A DNA stretch of 64,000 nt. Source: a virus (lineage: Duplodnaviria > Caudoviricetes). The stretch is taken from IMG/VR virus record IMGVR_UViG_3300033121_001571; one strand, given 5' to 3'. A model generated the notes under the pieces. It was not told the origin of the DNA. It did no database searches and was given only the letters and a program-made list of their open reading frames with translations. The position numbers and the translations under genes are program-made. This document shows, piece by piece, positions 140 through 63,976 of this stretch (position 1 is its first letter; each line of letters opens with the position of its first letter).

Positions 140-331
140 TCAAGTGTATTTTTTCACAAATACTAACTCTTTAGAAGAGATTCTATAGATGATTTTTGTT
201 TCGAAGTTGAAATATCTTGCAAAGTGTTCATTCAGTGACAACAACATACAATTTGGTCTTGTGCTAAAGATGTGTGATATCAGATCACCTTTTGAAAATC
301 GTTTTTTTATTTCCATTTCCGCTAAGAACAA
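140..331 (-). CDS. xGD-family small protein
   Basis: FSKGDLI motif. Confidence 0.6.
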   Translation of the reverse strand: MFLAEMEIKKRFSKGDLISHIFSTRPNCMLLSLNEHFARYFNFETKIIYRISSKELVFVKKYT

Positions 332-512
332 TCGTCGTTAGTTCTAAATTTGATAGATCAAAATAACTCAAATGGTAGTGAGGTTCACTGCTAAAGAATA
401 TTTTTTCGCAGCTTTCTTCACACATATCACAATAAACAACTAAACAACGAACTTCATTTGGTAGGAATAAAATGTCACCAACTTTAGTTGTGTGAATATC
501 AAAGTTTTTCAT
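285..512 (-). CDS. xGD-family small protein
   Basis: KVGDILF motif. Confidence 0.7.
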   Translation of the reverse strand: MKNFDIHTTKVGDILFLPNEVRCLVVYCDMCEESCEKIFFSSEPHYHLSYFDLSNLELTTIVLSGNGNKKTIFKR

Positions 513-747
513 TAACGTTTTCAGGGTTATCTTCTTGAATTCGAGCAGCTCGAGTTCTAGACATAGTGAAATAACGTTTCTTGTTTTTCAACACTTTTCT
601 CAAGTCTTCATACGGTTGACAAACAAAACATTCGATTTCGCACTTTTCACAGTATTGTACGTAGCTGTGCTCTTTACAAAAGACAACAGTGTCGCCGTGC
701 ACTGGGCAAGTTTTAAGTTTTGTGTTTTTTTGACACTTTAACTTCAT
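499..747 (-). CDS. Cys-rich hypothetical protein, possible Zn-binding
   Basis: CPVH, CKEH, CEKC, CFVC; coupled to neighbours. Confidence 0.6.
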   Translation of the reverse strand: MKLKCQKNTKLKTCPVHGDTVVFCKEHSYVQYCEKCEIECFVCQPYEDLRKVLKNKKRYFTMSRTRAARIQEDNPENVNEKL

Positions 748-753
748 TGATTT

Positions 754-1290
754 TTAAGTCAAAGACTCAATTGTTCTAACAAATTTTCTCTCTAAACATA
801 TATCATTGCCCACAAATTTTTCTCCCCAAGTGCGCGTGTCAATATCATAAGGACGCACTTTGAGGTTAACGTGTGGAATAACTAGTACTCTAACTGCATC
901 TCTGGTGGAGAAACAATTTTTGTACTCTAGAAAAAGAAAAACCATGTTTTCAAGGTCATACTCGCCTTTGATCAAATCATCATCAGGGACATCTCTTGGA
1001 AATGGATTTTCTTTACCACCACAGAGAATCTCTGGAAATTCGATATCAATATCTTCTTCTTTGGGTCTATAATTTTTAGTTAGAGGCAATTGACTGTTGT
1101 AACAAGTCACCATCTTCATAAGAGTGCCTGGGATTAAGATCTCATTAGTTAATTTACTTTCACACTTCAAACAGTGACAACAACAGTGAACTGCACCCTC
1201 AATTTTTACTGTTTTGTGTAATTTGTAGTTGTTTTCGATCATCTCACAGATACTATCATAAAAATCTATTTGATTTTGGAACTTACTCAT
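754..1290 (-). CDS. xGD-family protein with CxCxxC N-terminal extension
   Basis: CHCLKC followed by IPGTLM. Confidence 0.7.
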   Translation of the reverse strand: MSKFQNQIDFYDSICEMIENNYKLHKTVKIEGAVHCCCHCLKCESKLTNEILIPGTLMKMVTCYNSQLPLTKNYRPKEEDIDIEFPEILCGGKENPFPRDVPDDDLIKGEYDLENMVFLFLEYKNCFSTRDAVRVLVIPHVNLKVRPYDIDTRTWGEKFVGNDICLERKFVRTIESLT

Positions 1291-1380
1291 CTGGAGCTCC
1301 TGTGAACAGGTGATCGTCTATGACAAACGAGTATCAAGCTAATATTACTGTCTGTGTAGAAGTCTTACACTCTAAGCACT

Positions 1381-1605
1381 CTATGTTAGTATCTTTTTGA
1401 ACCCCCTGTCAAAGCACCCAAAGTACTTTGGTTTAATCATGTCATTGTTTAGTGGTCCAAATACCATACAAATATGACCAACTCTTCTAGCTTTAACGTA
1501 CTTGATAAAAACGTAGATGTCACTGTTTCCGCGAAAACATAGTTCGCCAGAAGAAAGAAAACAGTTATTCTTGTTCATAATCAACTCCTCTATAGAAGAA
1601 CGCAC
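1381..1605 (-). CDS. xGD-family small protein (GPL subfamily)
   Basis: SGELCF, VFGPL. Confidence 0.6.
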   Translation of the reverse strand: MRSSIEELIMNKNNCFLSSGELCFRGNSDIYVFIKYVKARRVGHICMVFGPLNNDMIKPKYFGCFDRGFKKILT

Positions 1606-1795
1606 AGTATCTAGTTATCACTGTTGGTTTTGATTGGTTACAATCAGAAAACATAGTCACTTTAGATTGTAAGACACTTATGGGTCCGTATATTTGTAAA
1701 TCTTCTTTAACGTCATCAACATTTAAAACAAAGAAAACTTCTTTTGTGTAAAAATTAACAACAACATCTCCACGATTAAACTCGTGTTTCATCAA
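1565..1795 (-). CDS. xGD-family small protein (GPL subfamily)
   Basis: NRGDVVV, IYGPI. Confidence 0.7.
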   Translation of the reverse strand: MMKHEFNRGDVVVNFYTKEVFFVLNVDDVKEDLQIYGPISVLQSKVTMFSDCNQSKPTVITRYCAFFYRGVDYEQE

Positions 1796-2111
1796 CCTTT
1801 AATTTTCTTAACTTTAATGTGTAATAAGTTTTTATTTTCGCTGTGGGTGTTTCAGAAGACGACCACGATAATGGTCCAAAAACTCTAGAATTTTTAAAGA
1901 CTGTGTTACTTGTGTTTATTGAAAGAACAATATACACGTTGTCTTTTTCGGGCTCCTTTACGGTAGAAATTATACCCGATTTATCACGACGGTATATAGA
2001 AATTGGCTTAACTAGGCTGCCAATGAGTGGCAAATCTTGTAGAAGTTCATTTTGACACTTTAGACAAATACAATAATATGTTTCACCACCTTCAACGATT
2101 GGTTCATGCAT
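1776..2111 (-). CDS. xGD-family protein with CxCxxC (GPL subfamily)
   Basis: YCICLKC, IGSLVK, VFGPL. Confidence 0.7.
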   Translation of the reverse strand: MHEPIVEGGETYYCICLKCQNELLQDLPLIGSLVKPISIYRRDKSGIISTVKEPEKDNVYIVLSINTSNTVFKNSRVFGPLSWSSSETPTAKIKTYYTLKLRKLKVDETRV

Positions 2112-2487
2112 CTAGTTTAGAAATTTCTCTCGTGCGCCACATTTCTACACGACATATGTTTATTTTGCGAAAATTGTTGTTTAATGGTCCATATGCTAAA
2201 CACCATCCCTTTTCTACGCCTTCTAACTCGTTAAACACGACAGTGTTGCTTAACACCATGTACATTAATCCATCGCTGCTAGACGGGATCAAAAGTGGTT
2301 CGTGAGAACCGTAAGACCGTGATAATGGAGAATAAAAAGAAATACACTGGATAAGTGTACCTGGAATGTATTTCTTGCTATTTGCTACACTGTAACAAAT
2401 AGAACACATACAATAAAAAGTACTACAATAAAAAGATTTATCATTTGCTGTGATTACTTTGTTACAGCAACTTGCAGTGACCGTCAT
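2104..2487 (-). CDS. xGD-family protein with CxCxxC (GPL subfamily)
   Basis: YCMCSIC, PGTLIQ, AYGPL. Confidence 0.7.
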   Translation of the reverse strand: MTVTASCCNKVITANDKSFYCSTFYCMCSICYSVANSKKYIPGTLIQCISFYSPLSRSYGSHEPLLIPSSSDGLMYMVLSNTVVFNELEGVEKGWCLAYGPLNNNFRKINICRVEMWRTREISKLDA

Positions 2488-2705
2488 TACACAACACCAA
2501 TTTTTTTGAGTTGGTTGACGTGAAGTTTAACTAAGTGCATTTTATGCCCATCACCAAGGGGTCCATAAATAGACGCTATGTTGCGAGAGTTGATTTCTAT
2601 TATTATTCCAAGTTTTCCAAGTTGAAAATTAGAACAATCTTTGTAGTATAAGACATCATAATATGCTGTAGTGACTAAGTCACCGATTGCTATGCACTTT
2701 TTCAC
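2487..2705 (-). CDS. xGD-family small protein (GPL subfamily)
   Basis: IGDLVT, LGIII, IYGPL. Confidence 0.7.
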   Translation of the reverse strand: MKKCIAIGDLVTTAYYDVLYYKDCSNFQLGKLGIIIEINSRNIASIYGPLGDGHKMHLVKLHVNQLKKIGVV

Positions 2706-2944
2706 TTTGAATCTTTTATGACTCTTGCAACGTTGTCACTATTTAAGCTCTCTAAGTGTCCAAGAGAAACAAAACGATGCTTGTTGACAGTATTTTTGAC
2801 ACACACTAAAATATAAATTTCTGCGTACTCATCGTCAGGTTCTGAACTAGGTGATAAAAAAATACACAACTTAGAAAGACCGACGAAGTTACGAAGCTTC
2901 GGCGTGAAGACAACCAGTTGACCTGGTTTATATCGACTTTTCAC
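2702..2944 (-). CDS. xGD-family small protein
   Basis: KPGQLVV. Confidence 0.7.
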   Translation of the reverse strand: MKSRYKPGQLVVFTPKLRNFVGLSKLCIFLSPSSEPDDEYAEIYILVCVKNTVNKHRFVSLGHLESLNSDNVARVIKDSK

Positions 2945-3282
2945 TTTAACTTAGAAGAAACTTCTTTTAACTTCAAGACTTTGTCTCTCATCTCATCCAA
3001 GAGATCTAGGACAATCTGAAGACGGTTATCGCTCAGATCCTTAATTGAGTTAATTAACTCAATAAGTCTTCTTAGATCTGACGGAAGCGAATCTAATCTG
3101 ACATATCTTTCAACCTTGTCTTTTCCTCCCGGCGTCTCTGGGGGTGTGATGAACAAAATTCTATTGGGAAGTTCTGCATCGTTCATATACTCATCAACAG
3201 TCATAATAGTCGTAAGTCTAGATATTTTGTTTTCTGTGATTGGTTTGACACCTTCAAGAATTTTGCTTACATCAATACTCAT
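2941..3282 (-). CDS. hypothetical protein
   Basis: Coupled ORF with helical C-terminus. Confidence 0.7.
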   Translation of the reverse strand: MSIDVSKILEGVKPITENKISRLTTIMTVDEYMNDAELPNRILFITPPETPGGKDKVERYVRLDSLPSDLRRLIELINSIKDLSDNRLQIVLDLLDEMRDKVLKLKEVSSKLK

Positions 3283-3698
3283 TATTTTTTCCTTGTGTAA
3301 TCATTTAAGTGTGTTTGCAACATCTTGTTTAGCGTCTCGCACTCTTTTATGCAGTCTTCAACAGTTCCTTCAAATATTTCATATGTTTCAAATCCTGGCG
3401 CATCAAGCACGACGAGAGCACACGGTGATTCATCATCAGCTACGCTAGTCTTCATATCATGAGGACATACTTTAAAGGGCCTAAAAAGCTTTTTGGGTTC
3501 ATATAGACGAAGTTCTCCTAGTTCAGGTAACTTACCAAAACCGATCCAATCACCGATCATCATGACTCTATAACCGCTAGCTTCGTTAGCGAAATTTTGA
3601 GCTTCACCCTCAAGTTCAAGCGGAAAAACGCCTTTAGGAATTGAACGACCACTTGGGGTGTGAGAAAAAACAAAAATGTACTTCTTCGATTTAAACAT
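3282..3698 (-). CDS. hypothetical protein
   Basis: Coupled ORF. Confidence 0.7.
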   Translation of the reverse strand: MFKSKKYIFVFSHTPSGRSIPKGVFPLELEGEAQNFANEASGYRVMMIGDWIGFGKLPELGELRLYEPKKLFRPFKVCPHDMKTSVADDESPCALVVLDAPGFETYEIFEGTVEDCIKECETLNKMLQTHLNDYTRKK

Positions 3699-4056
3699 GT
3701 GGGTATCCTTTCTGTTCCCAAGTGTTAAATTGTTTCAAAGCTTTTTTGTAAAGCGGAAAGATAACGTCTATCTGTTTTACTAATCTTGAATGGCTTTTGG
3801 AGCTTTTTCCTGCGTTTCTGATTGTGCAAAGATCTCTGTGGAGAAAACTTAAACCAACGGTGATCTCTGAGATACCGTACTTAGCTCTGTTACTAAGTTT
3901 AGCATGAGTCTCTGAAGTCAGACGTTCTTCAGGAAGATGTTTCATTGCTTTTTGGAACTCCGTTGGATCGATTCCAACTGAAGGAAGTTTATCACACAGA
4001 TCAGTCAAATAATCTTTCCAAGTCTTCTTCACTTTCCCACCAAACCTTTCAACCAA
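3691..4056 (-). CDS. hypothetical protein
   Basis: Coupled ORF. Confidence 0.7.
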   Translation of the reverse strand: MVERFGGKVKKTWKDYLTDLCDKLPSVGIDPTEFQKAMKHLPEERLTSETHAKLSNRAKYGISEITVGLSFLHRDLCTIRNAGKSSKSHSRLVKQIDVIFPLYKKALKQFNTWEQKGYPHV

Positions 4057-4547
4057 GTTTCGTTGTCATCTGGAACAAAATTTTGTTCGGAGTCCCAAAT
4101 AACTGTAAAATTCTCTGATTCAATCATTTCAAATAGATCTGTCTCACTCCAGTCTTCACTTACCCAACCCTTGCTAGGATCATGGTGATCAAGTTTGTAG
4201 TTATCACCGTAAAACTGTGGAACATTGGTGATGATGTGTAGAGTGTTGCCCACTCCAGTGAAAACAGTGTTGTGTGAGAAAGTGTGCTCTGGTTTGTCGT
4301 TCAGATTAACGAGTTCTGATGCAATCTTTTCACCCTTGAGAAGATTCAACATGATCTTGTCAGCACCAACTGAATCATAACGAGTTGCACTTTCAACATC
4401 ACTCACCCAACCTTGGCCAGATTCACTGTAGAACATGGGTGAATCATAGTAGTGATCTGAATTAACAATGTTGGAGTGAAAACGAACCACAAATTGGTAA
4501 GATGAATCTTTTGGAGAGTTTTTTTTACTATTTTTCTTAGTTTTCAT
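4029..4547 (-). CDS. hypothetical protein
   Basis: 172 aa ORF in operon. Confidence 0.7.
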   Translation of the reverse strand: MKTKKNSKKNSPKDSSYQFVVRFHSNIVNSDHYYDSPMFYSESGQGWVSDVESATRYDSVGADKIMLNLLKGEKIASELVNLNDKPEHTFSHNTVFTGVGNTLHIITNVPQFYGDNYKLDHHDPSKGWVSEDWSETDLFEMIESENFTVIWDSEQNFVPDDNETWLKGLVGK

Positions 4548-4602
4548 GTTTTTCTAAATGTGATTTATCTTGTAACAGAGATGAAGATAGTGTGCATGCA
4601 TT

Positions 4603-4676
4603 GTTCTAACTGTGTTAGAATTTACTGCTAACACTACACGTTCTAACTGTGTTAGAATTTACTGCTAACACTACAC
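4603..4676. repeat. Perfect 37-bp tandem duplication
   Basis: gttctaactgtgttagaatttactgctaacactacac at 4603-4639 and 4640-4676. Confidence 0.9.
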
Positions 4677-4851
4677 AAGTTTCACTTTTAGTATCAACAC
4701 GTACTACTAGCACAAATTCTACAACGATCTTATCTGTTATGACATCATAACTTGTGATCTCCACAAGATTACCGACTTTGAGTTTGCTGATATCACTTCT
4801 TAATTTCATGTCTAACAGACAACTCATTAGACAATTCATCAAGCTTGACAA
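4615..4851 (-). CDS. xGD-family protein, C-terminus frameshifted by the 37-bp duplication
   Basis: KVGNLVE; duplication length is not a multiple of 3. Confidence 0.55.
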   Translation of the reverse strand: MSSLMNCLMSCLLDMKLRSDISKLKVGNLVEITSYDVITDKIVVEFVLVVRVDTKSETCVVLAVNSNTVRTCSVSSKF

Positions 4852-5044
4852 GATATTCTACAGCGACAGGGTAAACTCTTTTGGAGAATATTCCTAAAAC
4901 TGTGTAGTATAGCACACCAAATTCACTTACACACATATCACTTAAGACTAACTCTAAACGAAGTCCAATAGTTTCATCATCAATATATTCACTCTCTGAC
5001 GGTCTAACCCAAGCAACTAAATCACCTATTCTAAACTTAGACAA
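4793..5044 (-). CDS. xGD-family small protein
   Basis: FRIGDLVAW. Confidence 0.75.
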   Translation of the reverse strand: MSKFRIGDLVAWVRPSESEYIDDETIGLRLELVLSDMCVSEFGVLYYTVLGIFSKRVYPVAVEYLVKLDELSNELSVRHEIKK

Positions 5045-5234
5045 CTCGAATACGCCTTTCCTTGATAAGATCTAAGCCAAAAGAACGATCTAAGGTTGTG
5101 ACTTCATGATTTGTCAAGTTTAAAAGCAATATCGTATCAGTTGTTCTCAAGACGAGATAATATGAAAATTCGTCCAAGAATGTATGATCCAAGAAAATAA
5201 AGTGCCAGGGTTTAGCTGTGTGTTCACAAAACAC
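5037..5234 (-). CDS. small protein, probable diverged array member
   Basis: Coupled ORF. Confidence 0.55.
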   Translation of the reverse strand: MFCEHTAKPWHFIFLDHTFLDEFSYYLVLRTTDTILLLNLTNHEVTTLDRSFGLDLIKERRIRVV

Positions 5235-5502
5235 CTCTTTGTTTCATGTCATCTAACGGTGTAAGTTCATAATGTGTGATGATAACTTTTCCTTTCATAG
5301 TCAACACAACGTTGTAAAGAGTGTACGCAGGATTAATTCTTAAGTGCAAAAACATAACAAGACATTCAAAAAAATATTTTTGCTTTGCTTCTTTGTTAGG
5401 AATTCTTGAAAAATAAGCGTAATTAAAGTTATAGAGAAACAACTCTCCACGTTTAGATAGTCTCATTGTTGAGAGTACTTCATCTTCAATCGTTAAGATC
5501 AC
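5224..5502 (-). CDS. xGD-family small protein
   Basis: KRGELF. Confidence 0.6.
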   Translation of the reverse strand: MILTIEDEVLSTMRLSKRGELFLYNFNYAYFSRIPNKEAKQKYFFECLVMFLHLRINPAYTLYNVVLTMKGKVIITHYELTPLDDMKQRGVL

Positions 5503-5752
5503 GATCTAGTTCAGTTAGTTTATACAAGTAATCATATTTGAACTGTGTAACACCATTTCTGGTATACCGTCTCGTTTTGAAATTCTCTTTCAGGCCCTTA
5601 CTGAGGGGTAGCACGTACGGGTACCATCCGCTAAAACCAAGTTTCACAATAATTCCTATATGATTTTTGAGAAAATCTTTTGTAAACGGGGGAGATACAT
5701 CAGAAATAACAACAAGATCACCAGGTTTAAAGGATTTAGGCGTTTTCTTCAT
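5486..5752 (-). CDS. xGD-family small protein
   Basis: FKPGDLVVI, IGIIV. Confidence 0.75.
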   Translation of the reverse strand: MKKTPKSFKPGDLVVISDVSPPFTKDFLKNHIGIIVKLGFSGWYPYVLPLSKGLKENFKTRRYTRNGVTQFKYDYLYKLTELDRDLND

Positions 5753-5958
5753 CTGGCAAGAAGCTCATTAGGTCTGTAGAGACTGAACGCAGTGTAAATT
5801 TGACAACTTTCGATGTCAAACACAACATTTATATCTCCTTTCTTGTAAAGAAACAAACAGAAAAAACGTATATCAAAAGAATAACGTAACAGCTCTCCAG
5901 GTACAAAGTTAAAATTTCTCATAAACGATAAACATCTAAAGTATCGGAAACAATCCAA
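5749..5958 (-). CDS. xGD-family small protein
   Basis: FVPGELLR. Confidence 0.6.
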   Translation of the reverse strand: MDCFRYFRCLSFMRNFNFVPGELLRYSFDIRFFCLFLYKKGDINVVFDIESCQIYTAFSLYRPNELLAR

Positions 5959-6130
5959 AAGTTATATCGATAATTACACAACTGTCAATAACTAACACAT
6001 CGTAACATAGGACTCTATGTTCTATTCTAGACTCTGCCAGTTCTCTGCTCGGAAGTATTATTTTTAATATCATGCAAACATGTCCCCAAGCATACACTAG
6101 ATCACCAACATTAAATTTCTGATTTTTCAT
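5936..6130 (-). CDS. xGD-family small protein
   Basis: FNVGDLVY. Confidence 0.7.
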   Translation of the reverse strand: MKNQKFNVGDLVYAWGHVCMILKIILPSRELAESRIEHRVLCYDVLVIDSCVIIDITFGLFPIL

Positions 6131-6326
6131 GCTTACTCAAGGTGCTTAAGATAAGCAGAGTTTATGGGATAAGCGATTAAGTAATTTGTATCAAAAACGT
6201 AGTATGTGTTAACACAACTATCTTTTCTCAAGACAAGAACTATACGTTCTTCCCAACCTCGAGACACCATTAGACTTCCAACGTAGATTGTTTTTTGCAC
6301 TTGTGTTTAAAACTAAAAAATCTCGA

Positions 6327-6524
6327 TTAGATTATTGTTTTCAGAAGAGATCCAATACACATTGTTAGCCTAAACGATTCGAAATCTTTTATCTGAAGAA
6401 CATCGTATATGTCAAGATTTTTAGCAATTTTATCCTCTCCTAAGACAACATACAAGTACTTCTTTGGATAAGAACAATCATAAGGTATCACTAAATCTCC
6501 AGTATTAAATTTTTTCATTTCCAT
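6327..6524 (-). CDS. xGD-family small protein
   Basis: FNTGDLVI. Confidence 0.7.
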   Translation of the reverse strand: MEMKKFNTGDLVIPYDCSYPKKYLYVVLGEDKIAKNLDIYDVLQIKDFESFRLTMCIGSLLKTII

Positions 6525-6580
6525 TCTGAATATCTCAGCGTTGACGCTTCAATGCACTTGTCACGCTGGACTTTATGTTC

Positions 6581-6826
6581 TTATTTTACTATGGTTGTAA
6601 CAATAGTAGATTTCTGTTCAGTGACAAAACGACGAGCTTCTAACAATAATTGTTCAGTAATCAGATTAGTTGCATGTATTTCATTTAGAAACTCAATATC
6701 TTCAAACTCAAATTCGCCCAAAAAAATTTCTGCTAACTTCCACTCAACAGATTCATTGTTGTATTTGACGCACAATAAATCTGTTCCTCGAATTTCAAAC
6801 TTTATTCCCATTTTATTCTGATTCAA
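6581..6826 (-). CDS. hypothetical protein
   Basis: Coupled to upstream ORF. Confidence 0.6.
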   Translation of the reverse strand: MNQNKMGIKFEIRGTDLLCVKYNNESVEWKLAEIFLGEFEFEDIEFLNEIHATNLITEQLLLEARRFVTEQKSTIVTTIVK

Positions 6827-7097
6827 TCCTGATTGAAATGATCATTTCACCGTCATCTAACACAACCGCTCGCAGCTGATCATCATACGGCAAACAATCA
6901 AATTCACGGACAAAACGAGCTCCAGAATTTTGTTCGTGCAAACTTGCTCGCCGTTTATTGATTCTTTTCCAATTTGAAATATTCAAGGAAGGTTTCTCGT
7001 CTTCTGGCGGAAAGAATTGACTTGCGACACAACCTGGATTTTTCTGAATAAATTTCACTATTTCTTCTTTGCACAACTCAGTTGTGATTTTTTTCAT
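6813..7097 (-). CDS. phage hypothetical protein, leaderless
   Basis: Promoter GTGCAA-17-TAAAAT-6-ATG at 7132..7095. Confidence 0.75.
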   Translation of the reverse strand: MKKITTELCKEEIVKFIQKNPGCVASQFFPPEDEKPSLNISNWKRINKRRASLHEQNSGARFVREFDCLPYDDQLRAVVLDDGEMIISIRIESE

Positions 7098-7197
7098 GTT
7101 CTCATTTTACCATTCAACAGCACATCTTGCACTCAGCAACAACGGCACTCGTTGCTCCCAGATTTCCCTCAGAATAATCTTCTTGACTTTTATTGAG

Positions 7198-7454
7198 TCA
7201 CCCCAACACAAACATGATGAATTTTCTAAACCAGCTTAGAACCTCACTGTCAGAAGTCACTCTAAGAAATGAAGCGTCCCACTCGCTGCTGCGCCATCTC
7301 CAAAATCGATCGCTTCAGATTCACTGATAGTGACTCCGTACTCTCTTTGTATCAGCTCTCGAATCTTGTGGATGTCACCGTTGTCATAGTACGTGCTAGA
7401 CACGTCATTTCTAATCTGAAATGCTTTTGACACAAGTTTTTGATCAATCTTCAC
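7198..7454 (-). pseudogene. Frameshifted hypothetical gene, or sequencing indel
   Basis: One extra base in the T4 run (7302-7305) continues ...AIDF into WRWRSSEWDASFLRV... to a stop at 7198. Confidence 0.55.
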
Positions 7455-7466
7455 AAGAGCTCCTTT

Positions 7467-7694
7467 TTAATGATGAAGTGTTATTTCGTAGGATATGTTC
7501 AATTTTTTCATGAACACATAACTTATTATAACAACTTTATTTCGATCAAGATCAAAAACGCAACAGGAGTCCCACTGACACTCTGACAAGACTAAAACTA
7601 TCCGTTCAGCCAGTGACGTCTTGCCAGCGTAGTGAAGAACTAACTCTCCAGTTTTGTAACTATTTCTAAGTGTTGTCATGTGATTAAAAACCAA
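7467..7694 (-). CDS. xGD-family small protein
   Basis: YKTGELVL. Confidence 0.65.
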   Translation of the reverse strand: MVFNHMTTLRNSYKTGELVLHYAGKTSLAERIVLVLSECQWDSCCVFDLDRNKVVIISYVFMKKLNISYEITLHH

Positions 7695-7870
7695 AGATCC
7701 ATATCACGTTGGAATACTGCGGAAATTGTGTTGTAACTAAGTGAATAGGTGTGATACAAGTCACCGTACAGTGAATTTGTAGACGTGATCTTCAAGATCA
7801 AGAAAATTTCACTGTAAATTTCTAAAAATATCAGTTGACCAACTTTGAGTTTTGTGTGTTTAAGTTTCAA
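7676..7870 (-). CDS. xGD-family small protein
   Basis: LKVGQLIF. Confidence 0.65.
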   Translation of the reverse strand: MKLKHTKLKVGQLIFLEIYSEIFLILKITSTNSLYGDLYHTYSLSYNTISAVFQRDMDLWFLIT

Positions 7871-7976
7871 CTGTCTTTAATAGATCGTCTCGAACAACGA
7901 GAATGATATTTGTGGTGTAAGTGATAAACAACACAGTTATAAGACACACAAACACCAATATTCTAGGGAGAAATCT

Positions 7977-8288
7977 TCAGTCATAATCACAACCAGGTGG
8001 CAATGGCGGAAACAAGCAGTCAGATCTAACACGCATATATCTTTTCTTAGACAGACAAAAGATCACAGAGTTACCACTCAAAGTGTCTGGTCCCAAATAG
8101 ATTGATGGTTGATCAAAGTGTAGCTGACACGACGCTTGAATGTTTGCCGGGATGTACTCCAGGTACACGATATCACCAAGAGAAAACTTGTGTCTACTCA
8201 AAGAACACTTTGTCGAGCGGGTAGAGACACGTAAGTGGAAAAGAACACACTGTGTTATCTGATACACAAAACACTTTGTAAAACTCAT
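7977..8288 (-). CDS. xGD-family small protein (true start probably near 8200)
   Basis: FSLGDIVY. Confidence 0.55.
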   Translation of the reverse strand: MSFTKCFVYQITQCVLFHLRVSTRSTKCSLSRHKFSLGDIVYLEYIPANIQASCQLHFDQPSIYLGPDTLSGNSVIFCLSKKRYMRVRSDCLFPPLPPGCDYD

Positions 8289-8451
8289 TCCTATATACTT
8301 TTATGTCCTTGTTGTTATCGATCTGCATTATGATGACTAGATAATGTGAAAACTCACTTTGCTCTGAACGTAAAAATGTTATCCATGGATGAGAAGTACT
8401 TGAGCAGGCTGCTCCGATAACACGGAACTCACCACAGGTTGGTTTTATCAT
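8194..8451 (-). CDS. xGD-family small protein
   Basis: PTCGEFRV; coupled. Confidence 0.6.
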   Translation of the reverse strand: MIKPTCGEFRVIGAACSSTSHPWITFLRSEQSEFSHYLVIIMQIDNNKDIKVYRNEFYKVFCVSDNTVCSFPLTCLYPLDKVFFE

Positions 8452-8642
8452 GATCGCAACTTGTGTAGATGACAGTTTGAAACAAAAAAAGTTTGATTTT
8501 TACCATAGAAATCAAAGACTAACGAACCCGGCCAACGCGTGTTAGTGTTCAATATCAACACTATATTTGGACAACGTCGTCCGTTAAATACAACATCTGT
8601 ATTAACATCTGATCCCCAAACAACTATGTCTCCAACTTTCAC
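8448..8642 (-). CDS. xGD-family small protein
   Basis: MKVGDIVVW...LHKL. Confidence 0.75.
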   Translation of the reverse strand: MKVGDIVVWGSDVNTDVVFNGRRCPNIVLILNTNTRWPGSLVFDFYGKNQTFFVSNCHLHKLRS

Positions 8643-8643
8643 T

Positions 8644-8868
8644 CTATACGCCTTTGTAAACTGTCAACTTGTGCAGATAACTGGAAAAAGCGTAGTGGAA
8701 CGTGTTGTCGTATATCGCTAACACTAAACATATGTTGTTGACAATCTCTAAGATTAGCACTAGATCAGAAATGTTAAATTTTTCAAGATCACTCTCAGAG
8801 AAGAACTCAGAGTCAACAGAAATAAAGTTCCAAACAACTATGTCTCCAACTTTCAACTTAGGCATCAC
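8644..8868 (-). CDS. xGD-family small protein
   Basis: LKVGDIVVW...LHKL. Confidence 0.75.
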   Translation of the reverse strand: MMPKLKVGDIVVWNFISVDSEFFSESDLEKFNISDLVLILEIVNNICLVLAIYDNTFHYAFSSYLHKLTVYKGV

Positions 8869-9071
8869 TGCACAACAGCAACTGTCACTTTACACAAGTG
8901 ATGAAATGAATAGTAACGAACAGTGTAGGTCGGCAGGTGAATAGCTGCAACAACACTCTCAAGTATTTCTAATACTAACACCATGCCAGCGTTTTCTTCA
9001 CGTATACGTGAAGGTAAATCTCCATGCGAATAGTGGATGTATGCCAAATCTCCGGCTCTTATGTTTTTCAC
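8865..9071 (-). CDS. xGD-family small protein
   Basis: IRAGDLAY. Confidence 0.7.
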   Translation of the reverse strand: MKNIRAGDLAYIHYSHGDLPSRIREENAGMVLVLEILESVVAAIHLPTYTVRYYSFHHLCKVTVAVVQ

Positions 9072-9194
9072 ATTTCATTCTATCACTTAGAGAAAAACTT
9101 TTCACCCAAAGCGGTTTATGCTTTTTGCACTATCTCATTATCAAAATTAGAATTAGTCTGAATAGCGAACAATCACCAACTTGAAATTCATAGA

Positions 9195-9611
9195 TCAGAT
9201 CAAGGATCTTTCAATAAAGGCATTCAACGAAGGTACAAAGTGTAATTCTTGGATCTTCAAAAATTGAATAGACGGTATGTTACTTTTAACATATAGACTT
9301 CCATCCACAATACAAAGAATGTTAACATATTGCTTGTTCTCTGAAAGAATAAGCACGAGGTTTCTGACAAAGTAATCTTTTACAAAAGGTGGAATTAGTG
9401 TTGTCCACAAAACAATCTCGCCGGGTTCAATGATCCTAGAGTGTCTGTCTTTCACTTGTTCTTCAACTCTGCGTACGTTGTTGTCATGCCACTTTTCAGT
9501 GCAACTTGAAAATATAACTCTTCTATTCTCGTTATCACCATTTTCACTCTTCAAGTCTTTCAGTGTGCGAATCGATCTTAACCAGGCAGCTCCCATTTTG
9601 AATAAGCTCAA
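9195..9611 (-). CDS. xGD-family protein with N-terminal extension (start uncertain)
   Basis: IEPGEIVLWTTL, paralog of 9803..10027. Confidence 0.6.
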   Translation of the reverse strand: MSLFKMGAAWLRSIRTLKDLKSENGDNENRRVIFSSCTEKWHDNNVRRVEEQVKDRHSRIIEPGEIVLWTTLIPPFVKDYFVRNLVLILSENKQYVNILCIVDGSLYVKSNIPSIQFLKIQELHFVPSLNAFIERSLI

Positions 9612-9774
9612 AAACTTTTTTGTGTTCCAAACCCATAAGAAGCCAGTTGTTTAGTTTGTAGCCAAAAAACATAAAGACAAAATAGTGTTTAAACCAGTCT
9701 TTGTCTTCGAAGACATAGTTGCTTACTGGTTTTAGAGCTACAACACACAAGTCTCCGACTTTTATGTTTTTCAT
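9544..9774 (-). CDS. xGD-family small protein (GDLC subfamily)
   Basis: IKVGDLCVV. Confidence 0.75.
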   Translation of the reverse strand: MKNIKVGDLCVVALKPVSNYVFEDKDWFKHYFVFMFFGYKLNNWLLMGLEHKKVFELIQNGSCLVKIDSHTERLEE

Positions 9775-9802
9775 TTCGCTTAAATCGAAATGTCTTTGAT
9801 CT

Positions 9803-10027
9803 TTAACAGGTGATTTTAGTTATTTGATGCTTAACAACTGGACATCTGCCACCCGGAGGAAACAAGTATAAGACTTCACAATAAAGATCATTGACAATTT
9901 TAAGAATCATGACAACGTTCCTGCTAAAGTAACCTCTTGGAAAAGGTGAATCTAACGTTGTCCACAAGACTATCTCTCCAACTTCTATGTTCTGTTGTTT
10001 TTTGTCTCTCATTTCTTGAATAACCAA
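9803..10027 (-). CDS. xGD-family small protein
   Basis: IEVGEIVLWTTL. Confidence 0.7.
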   Translation of the reverse strand: MVIQEMRDKKQQNIEVGEIVLWTTLDSPFPRGYFSRNVVMILKIVNDLYCEVLYLFPPGGRCPVVKHQITKITC

Positions 10028-10284
10028 TTTGTGCTTGACGTTACACCTTTGATGTTATTGCTTAAATAGCAAGTGTCATAACACTCTTCTCTACGCAGTT
10101 TGTGAAGATGACACAAAAAAACTTCTTTTACACGTGCTTTGCGTTTAGCGATGAGATTATTCAGAGATAAGACTTTACACTTGAGATCACCAACTTCAAT
10201 GACAAACACAAGTGCGTCAACAGCGTCCTTTACAGTTAGAGGAGAAAGATAGTGCAATGAAACTAGATCACCAGCTTTTATCAT
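10009..10284 (-). CDS. xGD-family small protein
   Basis: IKAGDLVS. Confidence 0.7.
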   Translation of the reverse strand: MIKAGDLVSLHYLSPLTVKDAVDALVFVIEVGDLKCKVLSLNNLIAKRKARVKEVFLCHLHKLRREECYDTCYLSNNIKGVTSSTNWLFKK

Positions 10285-10346
10285 CTTACTTTGTTCTTAA
10301 GAGCAATAATGCACAATGAACTGATTAAATCGTCTGTCTTGAAACA

Positions 10347-12979: not shown

Positions 12980-12980
12980 A

Positions 12981-56784: not shown

Positions 56785-57123
56785 ATGCTAAAACCCGGAG
56801 ACATCTTGCTCATTTGTCTTTCCAATGAAGATTACTTCAGGTGGAAGTACAATGAGGTCTGGTGTGATGAGAAGCTATTGATGATTGGTTCTAAGTTCAT
56901 AATTGCACATATGATGGTGTCATCAGATGTGATTCTATCTAAGAAAACTCGAGGTGCTAGATACGAGTGTCGTGATCTTATTCACATTTGGGTTCCAAAG
57001 AATAACAACAAACAAAGCATATATATTTTCCCAAGATTCCCAAGATCTTTTGCAATTTATAGTTCTGATCTCACTAAACTATCTGACGGGGTTTACCTCG
57101 TGAGCGACACATGGTCGCTGTAA
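56785..57123 (+). CDS. xGD-family protein
   Basis: MLKPGDILL. Confidence 0.75.
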   Translation: MLKPGDILLICLSNEDYFRWKYNEVWCDEKLLMIGSKFIIAHMMVSSDVILSKKTRGARYECRDLIHIWVPKNNNKQSIYIFPRFPRSFAIYSSDLTKLSDGVYLVSDTWSL

Positions 57124-57317
57124 GCATGCCCAAACCTGGCAACTTGATCATCTGGACACACAACATAGTTGACTTAGTTTTAAATGTCACTGTTAATAAC
57201 GATGGTCAAATTGATCTGCTTCTTTATAACGTTAACAGTTGCGTAATTGATTTTTATCCTGACCTTGATAACAGTTCAAAACTAGAGAAGAACGGGTGTT
57301 GGATTTTACACGAATAA
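57111..57317 (+). CDS. xGD-family small protein
   Basis: PKPGNLII. Confidence 0.7.
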   Translation: MVAVSMPKPGNLIIWTHNIVDLVLNVTVNNDGQIDLLLYNVNSCVIDFYPDLDNSSKLEKNGCWILHE

Positions 57318-57544
57318 AGCCTGGTGACTTGATTTTCTCTCTGTTTCTTAACGGAGAGATCAATCGTTTGTACGTAGTGATAAAATCAGATTATGATCTC
57401 GTTAGAAATGAATTTCTGGGTGAAGCGTATCTTATTCTTGATAATTCGTATTATCATCCTCGACGCAATGAAGTACTTCACTTGGTAGAACCAATCGGAA
57501 ATTTCTTAAAAATATCAGACAGAACTTGGACTCTTGCTTTCTGA
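57296..57544 (+). CDS. xGD-family small protein
   Basis: IKPGDLIF, LKISDRTW. Confidence 0.75.
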   Translation: MLDFTRIKPGDLIFSLFLNGEINRLYVVIKSDYDLVRNEFLGEAYLILDNSYYHPRRNEVLHLVEPIGNFLKISDRTWTLAF

Positions 57545-57558
57545 AGTGATACAAACTA

Positions 57559-57828
57559 ATGACATCTTTAAGACTTGGCGACATTCTATTTGTGGGTGAT
57601 GCCCTGTACACTCCACACTGGCGCACTCACACAACTGCGTGTTTGATGATGATTAACTCTCCACAAGATACTAACAGCATGTTTGTTTTTGGTCGCAATT
57701 TTACGTTGTTGTGGACAACATTGCCAAGTGAAGATTCTGTGAGAAAGAAAGTCACCAATATGATCTTTCAAGAAAAACTTATTTTCAAAGTGCTTGACAA
57801 CGTGTTTTACGTGAAAAGGACGTTGTGA
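57559..57828 (+). CDS. xGD-family small protein
   Basis: LRLGDILF. Confidence 0.75.
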   Translation: MTSLRLGDILFVGDALYTPHWRTHTTACLMMINSPQDTNSMFVFGRNFTLLWTTLPSEDSVRKKVTNMIFQEKLIFKVLDNVFYVKRTL

Positions 57829-58148
57829 TCAAACCCGGAGACATCATCTTTGTAGGTTTCTATCCGTACGGAATTTCAAATCCAAAAGACGTTATTTACG
57901 TAAAGCATCACGTTGTGATAGCACAATATCTGGTCTTAAAAAGACCTCGATTCATGAAAACTATTTACAAAAATATCGTAAAGATCAACTTTAACGTAAA
58001 AAACAGTGTTTTATTGTGTGAAAGCAAAGAACACAGAACGTGGCTTGAAGGAAATTATGGAAAAAAAGCACGTGGATCGTTCTTCATTGGAAAGCTTGTA
58101 AACATCCATAAAAACGTAAAGATGGCAACGTTACAAATGAGATATTAA
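57825..58148 (+). CDS. xGD-family protein
   Basis: IKPGDIIF. Confidence 0.75.
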   Translation: MIKPGDIIFVGFYPYGISNPKDVIYVKHHVVIAQYLVLKRPRFMKTIYKNIVKINFNVKNSVLLCESKEHRTWLEGNYGKKARGSFFIGKLVNIHKNVKMATLQMRY

Positions 58149-58161
58149 CACTGTCTTTAGA

Positions 58162-58467
58162 GTGAGCACACACATGATCAAACCCGGAGACATTGTACTT
58201 GTTAACCAACAACGCAACTGGATTCAAACCGATCCTGAAGCAATAGTTGTAAATTCTTTCAAAATTTTTGAGATTCTAGTGTGTTTGAGAGTGAGTTCAT
58301 ATCATGCTCACGGATATGACACTAAAGCACTTTGTTTGGTGGCGTGGCGTACTAAACATTATGGTGCAATGTATTATTCAGGTTACACTCATCGGATCAT
58401 TCCAGTCTTTTTAAACTTCTCTAAAGATATGAAGAAAATCTCAAACAACAGTTTCATCTTCACTTAG
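58162..58467 (+). CDS. xGD-family protein
   Basis: IKPGDIVL, KKISNN. Confidence 0.75.
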   Translation: MSTHMIKPGDIVLVNQQRNWIQTDPEAIVVNSFKIFEILVCLRVSSYHAHGYDTKALCLVAWRTKHYGAMYYSGYTHRIIPVFLNFSKDMKKISNNSFIFT

Positions 58468-62212: not shown

Positions 62213-62439
62213 CTGCTCACGCTGGTGACAGAAAACACACAGTGAAAACAATAAACATTGAAATTGGTTCAAAGTGGAGATGTAGTGACACTCGCGTGCC
62301 TGCTCACGATATCATCGTTACGATCGTTGGGTTTGGAGATTCTCCAGATGGAGAGTTAGTATACTACACTTACCCTGACGGGCAAATATTCCAATGGCTC
62401 AAGAAATACTGGCACTATGACAATGTTCCAGCTGAATAA
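62209..62439 (+). CDS. small SH3-like phage protein
   Basis: IEIGSKWR...LVYYTY. Confidence 0.6.
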   Translation: MTAHAGDRKHTVKTINIEIGSKWRCSDTRVPAHDIIVTIVGFGDSPDGELVYYTYPDGQIFQWLKKYWHYDNVPAE

Positions 62440-62596
62440 AACAAATAGTGTCTTAAGTCGTTCAACAATATTTCAAATTTCCTACACAAATTTTGTAATT
62501 CTACAAGAGTAGAATTTTGCTTTAGCGAGAAAAGAGCAAACACACGCAACAGTGCACGATCCACGTGCTTAAGGTACATTCTCTTGAGGTGGTAAG

Positions 62597-62971
62597 GTGA
62601 AAAACTTCAAATTTTTGTTCTCTGTGGTTCTTTCGTGCATCTCTGGTTGTTGTCCAGATCTAGAGACTGCGTGTGAAGACATCGCTGTCGCAAGGTGTGA
62701 AAGAGTCTGGAACTGCGGACTCTCTGCACCTCCCGGAACTGTGGAAGAGTGCATCGCTGATTCCAAAGAGAAGTGTATGACCAACACGTCTCTACTCGGC
62801 GTAGAGATCACAGCTTGTGAACTGCAAGCGTGTGCTACTGAGATCTCTGGCGCAGCGTGCAACGTTGAACCTTCTTGTGCTTTTTCTGCGGGTTCTCTCT
62901 TGTCTGGCAGTGCGTGTGAACTGAACACTCAGTGCGCCTCGGGTCACTGCAAAGTGGGTTTCTGTGACTGA
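62597..62971 (+). CDS. Cys-rich lipoprotein, myxobacterial type
   Basis: Signal peptide with lipobox ISGC, many Cys, C-terminal GSACxxNxQCASGHCxxGFC; own promoter GTGCAC-17-TACATT at 62552. Confidence 0.75.
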   Translation: MKNFKFLFSVVLSCISGCCPDLETACEDIAVARCERVWNCGLSAPPGTVEECIADSKEKCMTNTSLLGVEITACELQACATEISGAACNVEPSCAFSAGSLLSGSACELNTQCASGHCKVGFCD

Positions 62972-62977
62972 CGCTTT

Positions 62978-63244
62978 GTGTTGAAAGTACTTTCAACAGT
63001 GAAACAAGTGCAACCGGGTGATCTAATCGGTCACAAACTATACACTGAAGATCGATTTCACGTTGATGTAGTTTTCAACGTTTCAGTCAAACAAGTTAAA
63101 GACCAGTTCCCACAAGCATTTATCAAGATCTTGTGCACTCAAGATTTGAAAATTACTACTAAGGCGTGTATGTTACATTATCTGAGATATCACCAAGGAA
63201 TTTGGCTTACTGATTCCCATCACGCCTACTTCAATATCATATGA
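62978..63244 (+). CDS. xGD-family small protein
   Basis: VQPGDLIG. Confidence 0.7.
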   Translation: MLKVLSTVKQVQPGDLIGHKLYTEDRFHVDVVFNVSVKQVKDQFPQAFIKILCTQDLKITTKACMLHYLRYHQGIWLTDSHHAYFNII

Positions 63245-63507
63245 AATATTCAGATGATATTCCAAGTGTTGGAGAGTTATGTCTAATTAGACAAGATGCA
63301 TTTTTTATTGTTATCGATGCTCCCGATGTACGTCAGAACAAAAAGATTACAGACGTTCTTTCAAACGTGTTTCTTGTTGTGTTGTTTTGCGTTAATTCTA
63401 ACAAAACAACGCGCGTAGTCAGTTGTAATTTCTACAAGAATCTCTTCTTAAAGAAGGGATATACGTGGTTCTACCAAACAGACGTAAGAGCTTTCTTACG
63501 AAAATGA
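63241..63507 (+). CDS. xGD-family small protein
   Basis: PSVGELCL. Confidence 0.7.
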   Translation: MKYSDDIPSVGELCLIRQDAFFIVIDAPDVRQNKKITDVLSNVFLVVLFCVNSNKTTRVVSCNFYKNLFLKKGYTWFYQTDVRAFLRK

Positions 63508-63737
63508 ACAAATCAATACCCAAAACTGGCGACATTGTGATTGTGAAATATGCAACAATATCAGCGAATCTCTTGTTGGAGACAGTTGCTAAAACACATT
63601 CATATATTTTGTGTAAAGTTATCACTGTTCATTTAGACGATGAGCATTCGCCTGTGCCTATAAGAAGATATTTCGATCGCAATAATCTAAAGAAAATATC
63701 AGCAAATTTGTGGTTAGAGTGTTACCCAGACAAATAG
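63504..63737 (+). CDS. xGD-family small protein
   Basis: PKTGDIVI, LKKISANLW. Confidence 0.7.
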   Translation: MNKSIPKTGDIVIVKYATISANLLLETVAKTHSYILCKVITVHLDDEHSPVPIRRYFDRNNLKKISANLWLECYPDK

Positions 63738-63976
63738 CTATAGTGAAAAAATTACCCAAAATTGGTGATATATTGATCACAACTTCTAGTTACGGGAAAT
63801 TCTATACACATCTTATAATGTCTTCTGTGCATATGAAGAATTTTTATGACTATACGACAATTTTCCTCTATGAGGAACCAATTTCTTTGATTCACCCAGT
63901 TAGAATATACAAATACTACATTGATTTGCACATAGGAAAAGAAATCGCAAAAGGAGTGTGGATCTTTGTTTTCTGA
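63710..63976 (+). CDS. xGD-family small protein
   Basis: PKIGDILI, KEIAKGVW. Confidence 0.7.
   Translation: MVRVLPRQIAIVKKLPKIGDILITTSSYGKFYTHLIMSSVHMKNFYDYTTIFLYEEPISLIHPVRIYKYYIDLHIGKEIAKGVWIFVF

What the first reader, a model, noticed from the sequence alone, without database searches (positions are those of the whole stretch)
140..63976. About 100 hyper-diverged small xGD (SH3/KOW-like) paralogs in two divergent tandem arrays
Seen: about 42 minus-strand ORFs (140-13718), 3 central ones (19180-19894) and about 55 plus-strand ORFs (45583-63976). They start with (K/R/P)xG(D/E/N)[LIV][VIC] plus hydrophobic strands. Bodies are barely alignable, yet most frames are intact and stop/start-coupled. 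Neighbours form local subfamilies (GPL/CxCxxC, GDLC, EGSRIF, KKISxN), and both arrays reach the window edges. Established: xxGDxV is the first-strand signature of KOW/SH3/Tudor small beta-barrels, which bind nucleic acids or proteins. Inference: roughly half the window is spent on a birth-and-death repertoire of one small fold with variable surfaces. This could be a library of diversified binders, e.g. anti-defence, decoy or host-takeover effectors. It is the strongest candidate for an undescribed system here.
Basis: partly seen in the sequence, partly recalled or inferred. Interest (0 to 1): 0.9.

Follow-up and report, generated by a model that had tools for sequence, protein, structure and literature searches.

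The report
Giant phage family of tiny barrels
A probable 284-kb jumbo phage spends about 13% of its genome on roughly a hundred fast-changing copies of one tiny beta-barrel protein, which is unusually many for a phage, and strains gain and lose whole copies by recombining inside the one short motif the copies share; what the proteins do is still unknown.

Summary
Two outward-facing arrays (140-13718 minus, 45583-63976 plus) hold 109 ORFs of 50 aa or more. Coding density is 94-95%, against 20-29% in shuffles. 77 ORFs carry the strict N-terminal xGD[LIV] motif. 54 are linked by iterated HMMs and 11 more by hhalign, with no hit among antisense controls. About 20 are other genes.

AlphaFold models built on paralog-only alignments are confident (pLDDT 88 and 82). 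They match only SH3-like small barrels (Tudor, KOW, CarD, Hfq, PRC), at Z 5-6. Pfam, PHROGs and PDB sequences give nothing. A profile search of 1.84 billion proteins returned only this phage's own proteins. Relatives at 45-55% ATPase identity lack the arrays.

The new result comes from strain contigs at 96-99% identity. They differ by whole genes, and two resolved junctions lie in frame inside the motif-coding DNA, giving chimeric genes.

dN/dS is about 0.5, which is weak constraint. GC falls with distance from the centre. Function is untested, and a repertoire of variable-surface binders is my inference.

Earlier agents of this scan reported SH3-like paralog arrays of 10-30 copies in other phages (I did not check these). 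This is the largest such array so far.

The parts
140..13718 (-). Left array: 50 ORFs of 50 aa or more, mostly short (60-95 aa) five-strand barrels. It ends near the window's start.
   Evidence: outer boundary from strain contig L044
45583..63976 (+). Right array: 59 ORFs of 50 aa or more, mostly 85-125 aa barrels with a conserved Trp strand and an aromatic C-terminal strand. It continues about 5.5 kb past the window's end.
   Evidence: extension from L001 and L042
19180..19954 (-). Three family members in the GC-normal centre (19180-19395, 19495-19683, 19643-19954).
9544..13208 (-). Youngest left subfamily (8 members, GDLC type). It shares a 26-66 nt 5' DNA module that spans the start codon and the motif.
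50957..52329 (+). EGSRIF subfamily of four genes with shared 5' and 3' DNA modules.
12716..13164 (-). Segment missing in strain L035. The junction lies in the GDLC-coding DNA. It fuses the head of gene 12981-13208 to the body of gene 12469-12708, in frame.
56805..58173 (+). Five-gene segment missing in strain L042. The junction lies in a 14-nt identity that encodes KPGDI. It fuses the promoter and head of gene 56764 to the body of gene 58162, in frame.
9658..10024 (-). Site where strains L038 and L040 carry about 1.2 kb more: three genes absent from the window, all with the motif and two of them a similar tandem pair, plus a second copy of gene 9803-10027.
45872..45909 (+). Phage-type leaderless promoter at the head of the right array. 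Similar sites at 47076, 50938, 56744, 61468/61504 and 62552 (+), and at 9105 and 7132 (-), split the arrays into operons.
29061..29138 (-). tRNA-Arg(UCU). It reads AGA, which is twice as frequent in the arrays as in ten central ORFs.
38341..38415 (-). tRNA-Lys(UUU). It reads AAA, which is about twice as frequent in the arrays as in ten central ORFs.
754..2487 (-). Three longer members with a Cys-rich (CxxC) N-terminal extension ahead of the PGT/GSL strand. They were linked to each other only.

Best explanation
This is a lineage-specific multigene family of minimal SH3-like beta-barrel proteins in a probable jumbo phage (contig 284,379 bp).

The genes sit in two arrays that run outward from a 31-kb accessory region. 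They appear to be transcribed as several polycistronic operons from the same phage-type leaderless promoters as the central gene cassettes. Translation appears to rely on stop/start coupling, because there are no Shine-Dalgarno sites.

The family keeps only its fold determinants: the N-terminal xGD[LIV][LIV] strand and the buried hydrophobic residues of the other strands. Everything on the surface is free to vary.

Copy number changes by unequal homologous recombination between the short DNA stretches that encode the shared motif. This yields in-frame chimeras and deletes or adds whole genes, so each strain carries a different set.

New copies arise as tandem duplicates and diverge beyond BLAST recognition. 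They drift toward AT richness as they lie further from the centre.

The family, the fold, the operon layout and the recombination mechanism are shown here. The following is inferred: the proteins act in the infected cell as a repertoire of variable-surface binders of host or competitor molecules (host takeover, counter-defence or host range), with individual members dispensable.
For: Coding:
- 94-95% ORF cover against 20-29% in shuffles.

One family:
- An iterated HMM grew from 8 to 42 members across both arrays, and the union of two seeds is 54. No antisense control was hit.
- hhalign added 11 of 57 unlinked ORFs, with 0/62 antisense and 0/80 central controls.
- Left against right profile: probability 88%.

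Fold:
- pLDDT 87.8 and 82.2.
- Best matches are all SH3-like barrels, Z 5.2-5.8.
- Low-entropy columns are Gly, Asp and core hydrophobic residues on every strand.

Lineage-specific:
- All 16 hits in 1.84e9 proteins are 91-100% identical to the window's own proteins.
- There are no arrays in relatives G001, G002, L046 or L047.

Recombination:
- Junctions in L035 and L042 lie inside the motif-coding DNA.
- L038 carries extra paralogs.

Tandem birth:
- 21 of 30 best paralogs lie within 3 genes.

GC gradient:
- Spearman rho 0.69 (left) and -0.48 (right).

Promoters:
- 19 matches against 0.12 expected, with relaxed sites at the operon heads.

tRNAs:
- The two tRNAs in the window read AAA and AGA, which are enriched about twofold in the arrays.
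Against: - I have no expression or protein evidence.
- dN/dS between strains is only 0.40-0.76, and out-of-frame controls give 0.45-1.02, so current constraint is weak.
- Several members carry frameshifts or stops in one strain or another.
- Fold matches are at the level common for any small barrel (Z under 8), so they name no partner and no activity.
- About 45 of the 109 ORFs are tied to the family by the motif alone or not at all.
- The recombination junctions may simply mark the longest stretch of identity rather than an evolved handle.
- The library-wide profile search needs about 36 bits. Most of the window's own members do not reach that score, so distant relatives elsewhere could have been missed.
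Confidence: 0.5

Rival explanations
1. The proteins are nucleic-acid binders (Sm/Hfq-, KOW- or Tudor-like) that tune phage or host RNA, or act on RNA polymerase or ribosomes, rather than a library of protein binders.
For: - Fold hits include Hfq, NusG/Spt5 KOW, CarD/CdnL and Mfd RNA-polymerase-interacting domains, UvrD/PcrA Tudor, RimM and EF-P domain I.
- Median pI is 8.4.
- The T4 early proteins GoF, MotB.1 and Frd.2 have an LSm-like fold, and a GoF mutant stabilises an mRNA (PMC12152347).
Against: - No Pfam KOW, LSM or Tudor hit at E up to 5 in 54 members.
- A hundred variable copies are hard to reconcile with a few conserved nucleic-acid targets.
- pI is spread widely, from 5.2 at the 10th percentile to 9.5 at the 90th.
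Confidence: 0.2
2. The arrays are mostly evolutionary by-product. Unequal recombination keeps making copies that decay nearly neutrally, and few or none have a function.
For: - dN/dS is about 0.5, close to the out-of-frame controls.
- Strains differ by frameshifts and stops.
- There is whole-gene presence/absence between strains.
- Outer genes drift toward AT.
- The arrays are 2-3 times more divergent between strains than the neighbouring centre.
Against: - Copies have diverged beyond BLAST recognition yet keep open frames, at 94-95% cover in 35-45% GC DNA where shuffles give 20-29%.
- They also keep the fold-determining residues.
- Recombinant junctions are in frame.
- A phage with limited packaging capacity carries about 37 kb of them.
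Confidence: 0.15
3. The arrays are immunity- or exclusion-type genes (antitoxin-like, or superinfection exclusion against related phages). This would be analogous to the arrays of orphan immunity genes in bacteria.
For: They are tandem arrays of small diverged paralogs whose content differs between strains. This is a resemblance drawn from general knowledge only.
Against: - I recognised no toxin or effector gene next to the arrays among the ORFs I scanned.
- There are no signal peptides or membrane segments apart from the unrelated Cys-rich ORF 62597-62971 (by eye).
Confidence: 0.08
4. This is not one family. Many unrelated small ORFs merely share a common N-terminal strand motif.
For: - Only 30 of 109 ORFs have a BLASTP paralog at E below 1e-3.
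- About 45 ORFs are linked by the motif alone or not at all.
- Only two structures were modelled.
Against: - HMM iteration bridges both arrays with no control hits.
- The left and right profiles match beyond the motif, over 36 columns.
- Conserved core positions lie on all strands.
Confidence: 0.05

Closest known systems
T4 early LSm-like proteins GoF, MotB.1 and Frd.2 (PMC12152347)
   Same: They are small phage proteins of dissimilar sequence that share an SH3/LSm-type barrel. They are encoded among early or accessory genes, and their function is largely unknown.
   Different: T4 has three copies, not about a hundred. They are not in tandem arrays, no recombination at a shared motif has been described, and no sequence relationship was found here.
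SH3-like small-paralog arrays reported by earlier agents of this scan in other phages (Acinetobacter phages, a T4-like phage, rV5-like and phiEco32-like coliphages, an actinophage)
   Same: They are tandem arrays of tiny SH3-like barrels in probable early regions, reshuffled between sister phages and of untested function.
   Different: Those arrays have 10-30 copies. They are unrelated in sequence as far as tested: my family profile found no hit outside this species. They are AI notes that I did not re-examine.
Multigene families of large DNA viruses of eukaryotes (African swine fever virus MGF 110/360/505, poxvirus variable-end families); from general knowledge
   Same: They are large blocks of diverged tandem paralogs whose copy number varies between isolates through unequal recombination, and they are thought to act on host functions.
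   Different: Those are viruses of eukaryotes, their proteins are larger and of other folds, and their arrays lie at genome termini. Here the arrays are internal to the contig and flank an accessory region.
KOW motif (Pfam PF00467) of NusG/Spt5 and ribosomal protein L24
   Same: The first strand often reads xGDxV, the fold is a five-strand barrel, and KOW domains are among the fold hits.
   Different: There is no Pfam KOW match in 54 members. The Gly-Lys-Gly hairpin that follows the first strand in KOW (from general knowledge) is not conserved in alignments A1 and A2.

Membership tests
SH3-like small beta-barrel fold (structural class, not a sequence family) | Five or six antiparallel strands forming a small closed barrel. 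| tested here: met
   The AlphaFold left-type model has 5 strands (pLDDT 87.8) and the right-type model 7-8 strands (pLDDT 82.2). All top VIA and Foldseek rows are Tudor, KOW, CarD, BirA C-terminal domain, MscS beta domain, Hfq, NdhS, PRC or EF-P barrels, at Z 5.2-5.8. Only two members were modelled, and Z under 8 is common for small barrels.
KOW (PF00467) | A match to the KOW profile above Pfam's threshold. | tested here: not met
   No KOW hit at E up to 5 in 54 members scanned one by one, and none in 10 members at E up to 1.
Sm/LSm/Hfq | Sm1/Sm2 sequence motifs and ring-shaped oligomers. | tested here: inconclusive
   Hfq chains appear at Z 4.8-4.9. No LSM Pfam hit was found. Oligomer state was not tested.
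Tudor / chromo-like readers | An aromatic cage for methyl-lysine or methyl-arginine. | not tested
   SGF29, Sds3 and RDM15 Tudor domains are fold hits. I did not look for an aromatic cage.
DUF3104 (PF11302), a lead from the protein atlas | A match to the Pfam profile. | tested here: not met
   This was the nearest named cluster by language-model features, at 0.87 and 0.83, which is below the 0.9 lead level. None of the 54 members matches PF11302.
Any PHROG or solved-structure sequence family | A recurrent profile match. | tested here: not met
   PHROGs: no family is matched by more than 2 of 54 members, best E 0.005. PDB sequences: best E 0.38.
Virus multigene family evolving by birth and death | Tandem paralogs, copy-number differences between isolates, and recombinant junctions inside family members. 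| tested here: met
   Best paralogs are neighbours. Three presence/absence differences between strains were found, two with in-frame junctions in the motif DNA.

The most novel reading that the evidence does not exclude
The conserved head (and in some subfamilies tail) DNA modules are evolved recombination handles. They let the phage population shuffle, add and drop barrel cassettes in frame. This would make the arrays a population-level combinatorial library of counter-defence or host-range binders, a phage counterpart of the variable multigene families of large eukaryotic viruses and parasites.
Probability: 0.2. Interest if true: 0.85.

Novelty: new variant of a known kind. Interest (0 to 1): 0.66.

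Why it matters
- I know of no phage with a paralog family of this size: about a hundred copies over roughly 37 kb.
- The family has no relatives in Pfam, PHROGs or 1.84 billion representative proteins, yet it folds confidently from its own paralogs alone.
- Natural strain variants catch the mechanism of expansion and contraction in the act. Recombination occurs in frame at the motif-coding DNA, which links a protein's fold signature to the dynamics of its gene array.
- If the members are binders of host factors or defence proteins, the arrays are a ready-made natural library on a 60-120 residue scaffold.
- If they are near-neutral, they show how much dispensable DNA a jumbo phage can carry. 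Either answer bears on why jumbo phages are full of small orphan genes.

Tried and rejected
- **Known families.** Pfam and PHROGs scans of single members and of all 54 gave nothing recurrent. A profile against PDB sequences gave nothing. Foldseek against BFVD and the ESM atlas by shape gave no usable match. The atlas lead DUF3104 was not borne out.
- **Searches for the family elsewhere.** The word-indexed protein search with A2 found only two strain variants. No alignment stretch of A2 was conserved enough for a locus scan. Single array proteins were not found in IMG/VR or JGI metagenome contigs by pattern scan. The protein next to the array head has no relative in IMG/VR. The GenBank phage collection has no DNA match.
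- **Other genetic codes.** Codes 4 and 15 do not improve the central region, and the confident genes contain no in-frame TGA.
- **Host.** The phage GroEL's nearest relative is only 49% identical, so it does not name a host. The ATPase search gave one hit binned with an Actinomycetota MAG, which is only a hint.
- **Hypervariable alleles.** The hypervariable alleles (11917-12207, 59799-60059, 61898-62212) do not come from paralogs in the window, so gene conversion from a resident copy is not the source.
- **Literature.** Searches for a described phage family of this kind, or for the sample identifiers, found nothing specific.
- **Complex prediction.** I did not run it, because no partner is proposed.
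Full report
**Setting**

The window has an AT-rich left flank (GC 35-44%, 1-14000), a GC-normal centre (50-60%), and an AT-rich right flank (36-46%, 45500-64000). No whole genome is held. The window's proteins sit on a JGI contig of 284,379 bp.

The centre encodes an AAA_5 ATPase, a KaiC/RecA-like ATPase, a 2OG-Fe(II) oxygenase and two tRNAs. The ATPase resembles those of jumbo phages at 27-33% identity. Strain contigs add a GroEL and a sigma-70-family factor just outside the window. I read the contig as a jumbo phage, although I saw no capsid or terminase gene.

Yes.
- I picked 50 minus-strand ORFs in 140-13718 and 59 plus-strand ORFs in 45583-63976.
- ORFs of 50 aa or more cover 94% and 95% of the array strands. 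A hundred dinucleotide shuffles give means of 20% and 29% and a maximum of 37%. The antisense strands look like the shuffles.
- The motif G[DEN][LIVM][LIVCAMF] in the first 45 residues occurs in 29/56 and 41/76 sense ORFs. It occurs in 0/42 and 2/59 antisense ORFs and in 12/280 central ORFs.
- In the chosen gene set, 77 ORFs have the strict motif, 12 more have a loose one, and 20 have none.
- Gene junctions are tight. Twenty overlap by 4 nt, and most of the rest overlap or lie within 30 nt. Few upstream regions have a Shine-Dalgarno-like sequence.

**Is it one family?**

- Pairwise phmmer finds only small local clusters.
It pulled in none of about 100 antisense control ORFs.
- A second seed from the far right reached 25 sequences. 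The union of the two is 54.
- Single-sequence hhalign against the left (A1) and right (A2) alignments added 11 of 57 unlinked array ORFs at probability 50% or more. Controls gave 0 of 62 antisense and 0 of 80 central ORFs even at 20%.
- A1 against A2 gives probability 88%, E 3e-6, over 36 columns that span the first two strands.
- Conservation is not limited to the motif. The lowest-entropy columns are the Gly and Asp of the turn plus alternating hydrophobic residues on every strand. The right type also has a Trp, a Cys and a C-terminal aromatic residue.
- About 20 ORFs are something else: 2941-4547, 6581-7454, 62209-62971, and the ORFs in the non-coding-looking gap at 50216-50956. None has a Pfam match.

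**Fold**

AlphaFold2 with only the paralog alignments gave confident models.
- Left type (12469-12708): pLDDT 87.8, five strands.
- Right type (58162-58467): pLDDT 82.2, seven to eight strands.

Foldseek on the PDB gave no hit below E 0.1. The left-type list is full of Tudor, KOW, NdhS, Sm-like and ribosomal SH3-like domains. The right-type list is weaker and mixed.

The exhaustive VIA search gave:
- Left type, Z 5.0-5.8: Sds3 Tudor, MscS beta domain, BirA C-terminal domain, CarD, Mfd, NusG. Hfq chains follow at Z 4.8-4.9.
- Right type: Z 5.2 for the RimM PRC barrel, with EF-P domain I and UvrD/PcrA Tudor domains at Z 3.7-4.7.

These scores are ordinary for a small barrel. They name the fold class and nothing more. 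BFVD and the ESM atlas added nothing.

**Relatives**

- Pfam, PHROGs and PDB sequence searches were empty.
- A profile of all 54 members searched against 1.84 billion representative proteins gave 16 hits at E of 1e-3 or better. Every one is 91-100% identical to one of the window's own proteins.
- That search needs about 36 bits. Most of the family's own members do not reach this, so remote relatives could escape it.
- The ATPase shows a gap. After its own 90% cluster, the next relatives are at 58% identity or less.
- I examined four relatives: a 340-kb IMG/VR genome rated 99% complete, a 184-kb fragment, and two loci at 50-52% ATPase identity. All are GC 50-69% throughout. None has an AT-rich array or a family hit, apart from one marginal 81-aa ORF in the 340-kb genome (E 0.0017 among 2,533 ORFs).

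The expansion therefore belongs to this phage species, as far as present sampling shows.

**Strain variants show how the arrays change**

JGI and Logan contigs of the same species, at 96-99% nucleotide identity, cover both arrays. They differ by whole genes.
1. Strain L035 lacks window 12716-13164. Its junction reads through the 5' module of gene 12981-13208, up to the codons for GDLC, and straight into the body of gene 12469-12708. The crossover lies in the shared GGAGACTTGTG.
2. Strain L042 lacks window 56805-58173, which is five genes. The crossover lies in a 14-nt identity (AAACCCGGAGACAT) that encodes KPGDI. The promoter and head of gene 56764 now drive the body of gene 58162, in frame.
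3. Strains L038 and L040 carry about 1.2 kb that the window lacks. It holds three genes absent from the window, all with the motif and two of them a similar tandem pair, flanked by two copies of gene 9803-10027. The window has only one copy of that gene.

The shared 5' modules are visible as DNA repeats. In the GDLC subfamily they are 26-66 nt long, with up to 100% identity across the start codon, while the gene bodies are not alignable. The EGSRIF genes share 3' modules as well. This checks and confirms two earlier first-reader notes.

Among the 30 genes with a BLASTP paralog, 21 have it within three genes, against 1.6 expected. All 30 have it in the same array. Growth is therefore by local tandem duplication.

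**Selection**

| Comparison | dN/dS (Nei-Gojobori) |
|---|---|
| Window against strains, array genes, in frame | 0.40, 0.48, 0.52, 0.57, 0.76 |
| Same alignments read out of frame | 0.45-1.02 |

- By my own pooling of the L035 and L001 counts, the ratio is about 0.50 in frame and 0.62 and 0.90 out of frame.
- Several members carry a frameshift or stop in one strain.
- Differences are clumped. A few genes are 8-13% divergent with dN/dS from 0.4 to about 1.2, next to identical neighbours. The divergent alleles do not come from paralogs in the window.
- Between the same strain pairs, the arrays are 2-3 times more divergent than the neighbouring centre.

Present-day constraint is therefore weak. 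The long-term signal is stronger. The paralogs have diverged past recognition, yet they keep open frames and core residues in DNA where random frames are short.

**Other anatomy**

- GC and GC3 fall with distance from the centre in both arrays (Spearman rho 0.69 and 0.71 on the left, -0.48 and -0.55 on the right). On the left, the genes nearest the centre are also the ones with recognisable paralogs. This fits copies that are born near the centre and decay toward AT.
One lies at the head of the right array.
- A relaxed version of the pattern marks the larger intergenic gaps inside the arrays. The arrays therefore look like several operons of the same promoter class as the central cassettes.
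- The window's two tRNAs read AAA and AGA. Both codons are about twice as frequent in the arrays as in ten central ORFs.

**Function**

Nothing here tests function.
- The conserved residues are structural and the variable ones lie on the surface. Members are individually dispensable between strains. The genes share the promoter type of an accessory region.
- That fits a repertoire of binders acting in the infected cell, which is my preferred reading at about even odds.
- A nucleic-acid-binding role is the main alternative. Many of the fold neighbours bind RNA, RNA polymerase or ribosomes, and the median pI is 8.4. T4's LSm-like early proteins are the nearest published parallel (PMC12152347).
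- A largely neutral by-product cannot be excluded on the dN/dS data.

**Novelty**

- Earlier agents of this scan reported SH3-like small-paralog arrays of 10-30 copies in several unrelated phages. The kind of thing is therefore not new to this scan. I did not re-examine those reports.
- What is new here is the scale: about a hundred copies over roughly 37 kb of a 284-kb genome.
- The AT-rich gradient is also new.
- So is the direct view of in-frame recombination at the motif-coding DNA.

Noticed in passing
window 14598-42722, also 7095-7132 (-) and 45872-45909 (+): A leaderless promoter grammar (GTGHA, 17 nt, TAnnnT, 6 nt, ATG) has 19 exact matches against 0.12 expected. Nearly every small central cassette has its own copy. 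A sigma-70-family gene lies just left of the window in strain contig L044.
   Followed up: partly
window 13731-13905: Six direct copies of a 16-nt unit (core AATCCCGAGCA on the minus strand) lie in two clusters just upstream of the first left-array gene. The core occurs exactly nowhere else in the window: 7 matches at up to one mismatch (the seventh, at 28887, has one) against 0.65 expected. They may be regulator sites or iterons.
   Followed up: partly
window 54589-54701 and 31926-31981: A GC-rich palindromic element of about 90 nt sits inside the right array and resembles one in the centre (84-93% over 41-49 nt). The ORFs called at 54505-54902 overlap it and may not be genuine family genes.
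   Followed up: partly
window 4603-4676: A perfect 37-nt tandem duplication lies at the 3' end of gene 4615-4851. Strain L035 has a 37-nt deletion here, which shifts the frame.
   Followed up: partly
window 50216-50956: A 740-nt gap splits the right array. It holds a terminator-like hairpin at 50250-50271, two 107-nt repeats (50329-50435 and 50514-50620, 70% identical) and two 25-nt repeats. A promoter-like site at 50938 follows.
   Followed up: no
window 62597-62971 (+): A Cys-rich 124-aa ORF with a hydrophobic N-terminus (possibly secreted) is embedded in the right array. It has its own promoter-like site at 62552. Against strain L001 it shows 15 synonymous and 4 nonsynonymous changes, which is far stronger constraint than in the family genes. 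It has no Pfam match.
   Followed up: partly
window 29061-29138 and 38341-38415: tRNA-Arg(UCU) and tRNA-Lys(UUU) decode AGA and AAA. These AT-rich codons are about twice as common in the arrays as in the central genes.
   Followed up: yes
L008-L024 (IMG/VR UViG_3300036772_000425), record 100471-100716 (-): A single 81-aa ORF in the 340-kb relative starts with a KxxPGQLVV strand and scores E 0.0017 against the family HMM. It lies about 10 kb downstream of the homologous ATPase. It may be a single-copy relative of the family's ancestor, but the evidence is marginal.
   Followed up: partly
window 754-2487 (-): Three longer array genes carry CxxC-rich N-terminal extensions (possibly a zinc ribbon) ahead of the barrel-like part, plus a shared GPL motif. 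They link to each other but not to the main profiles.
   Followed up: no
window 15617-15947, 17397-17688 and 20537-20897: The central region also differs between strains by cassette-sized segments. These are gaps or 87-89% identity patches inside stretches at 99% identity.
   Followed up: no
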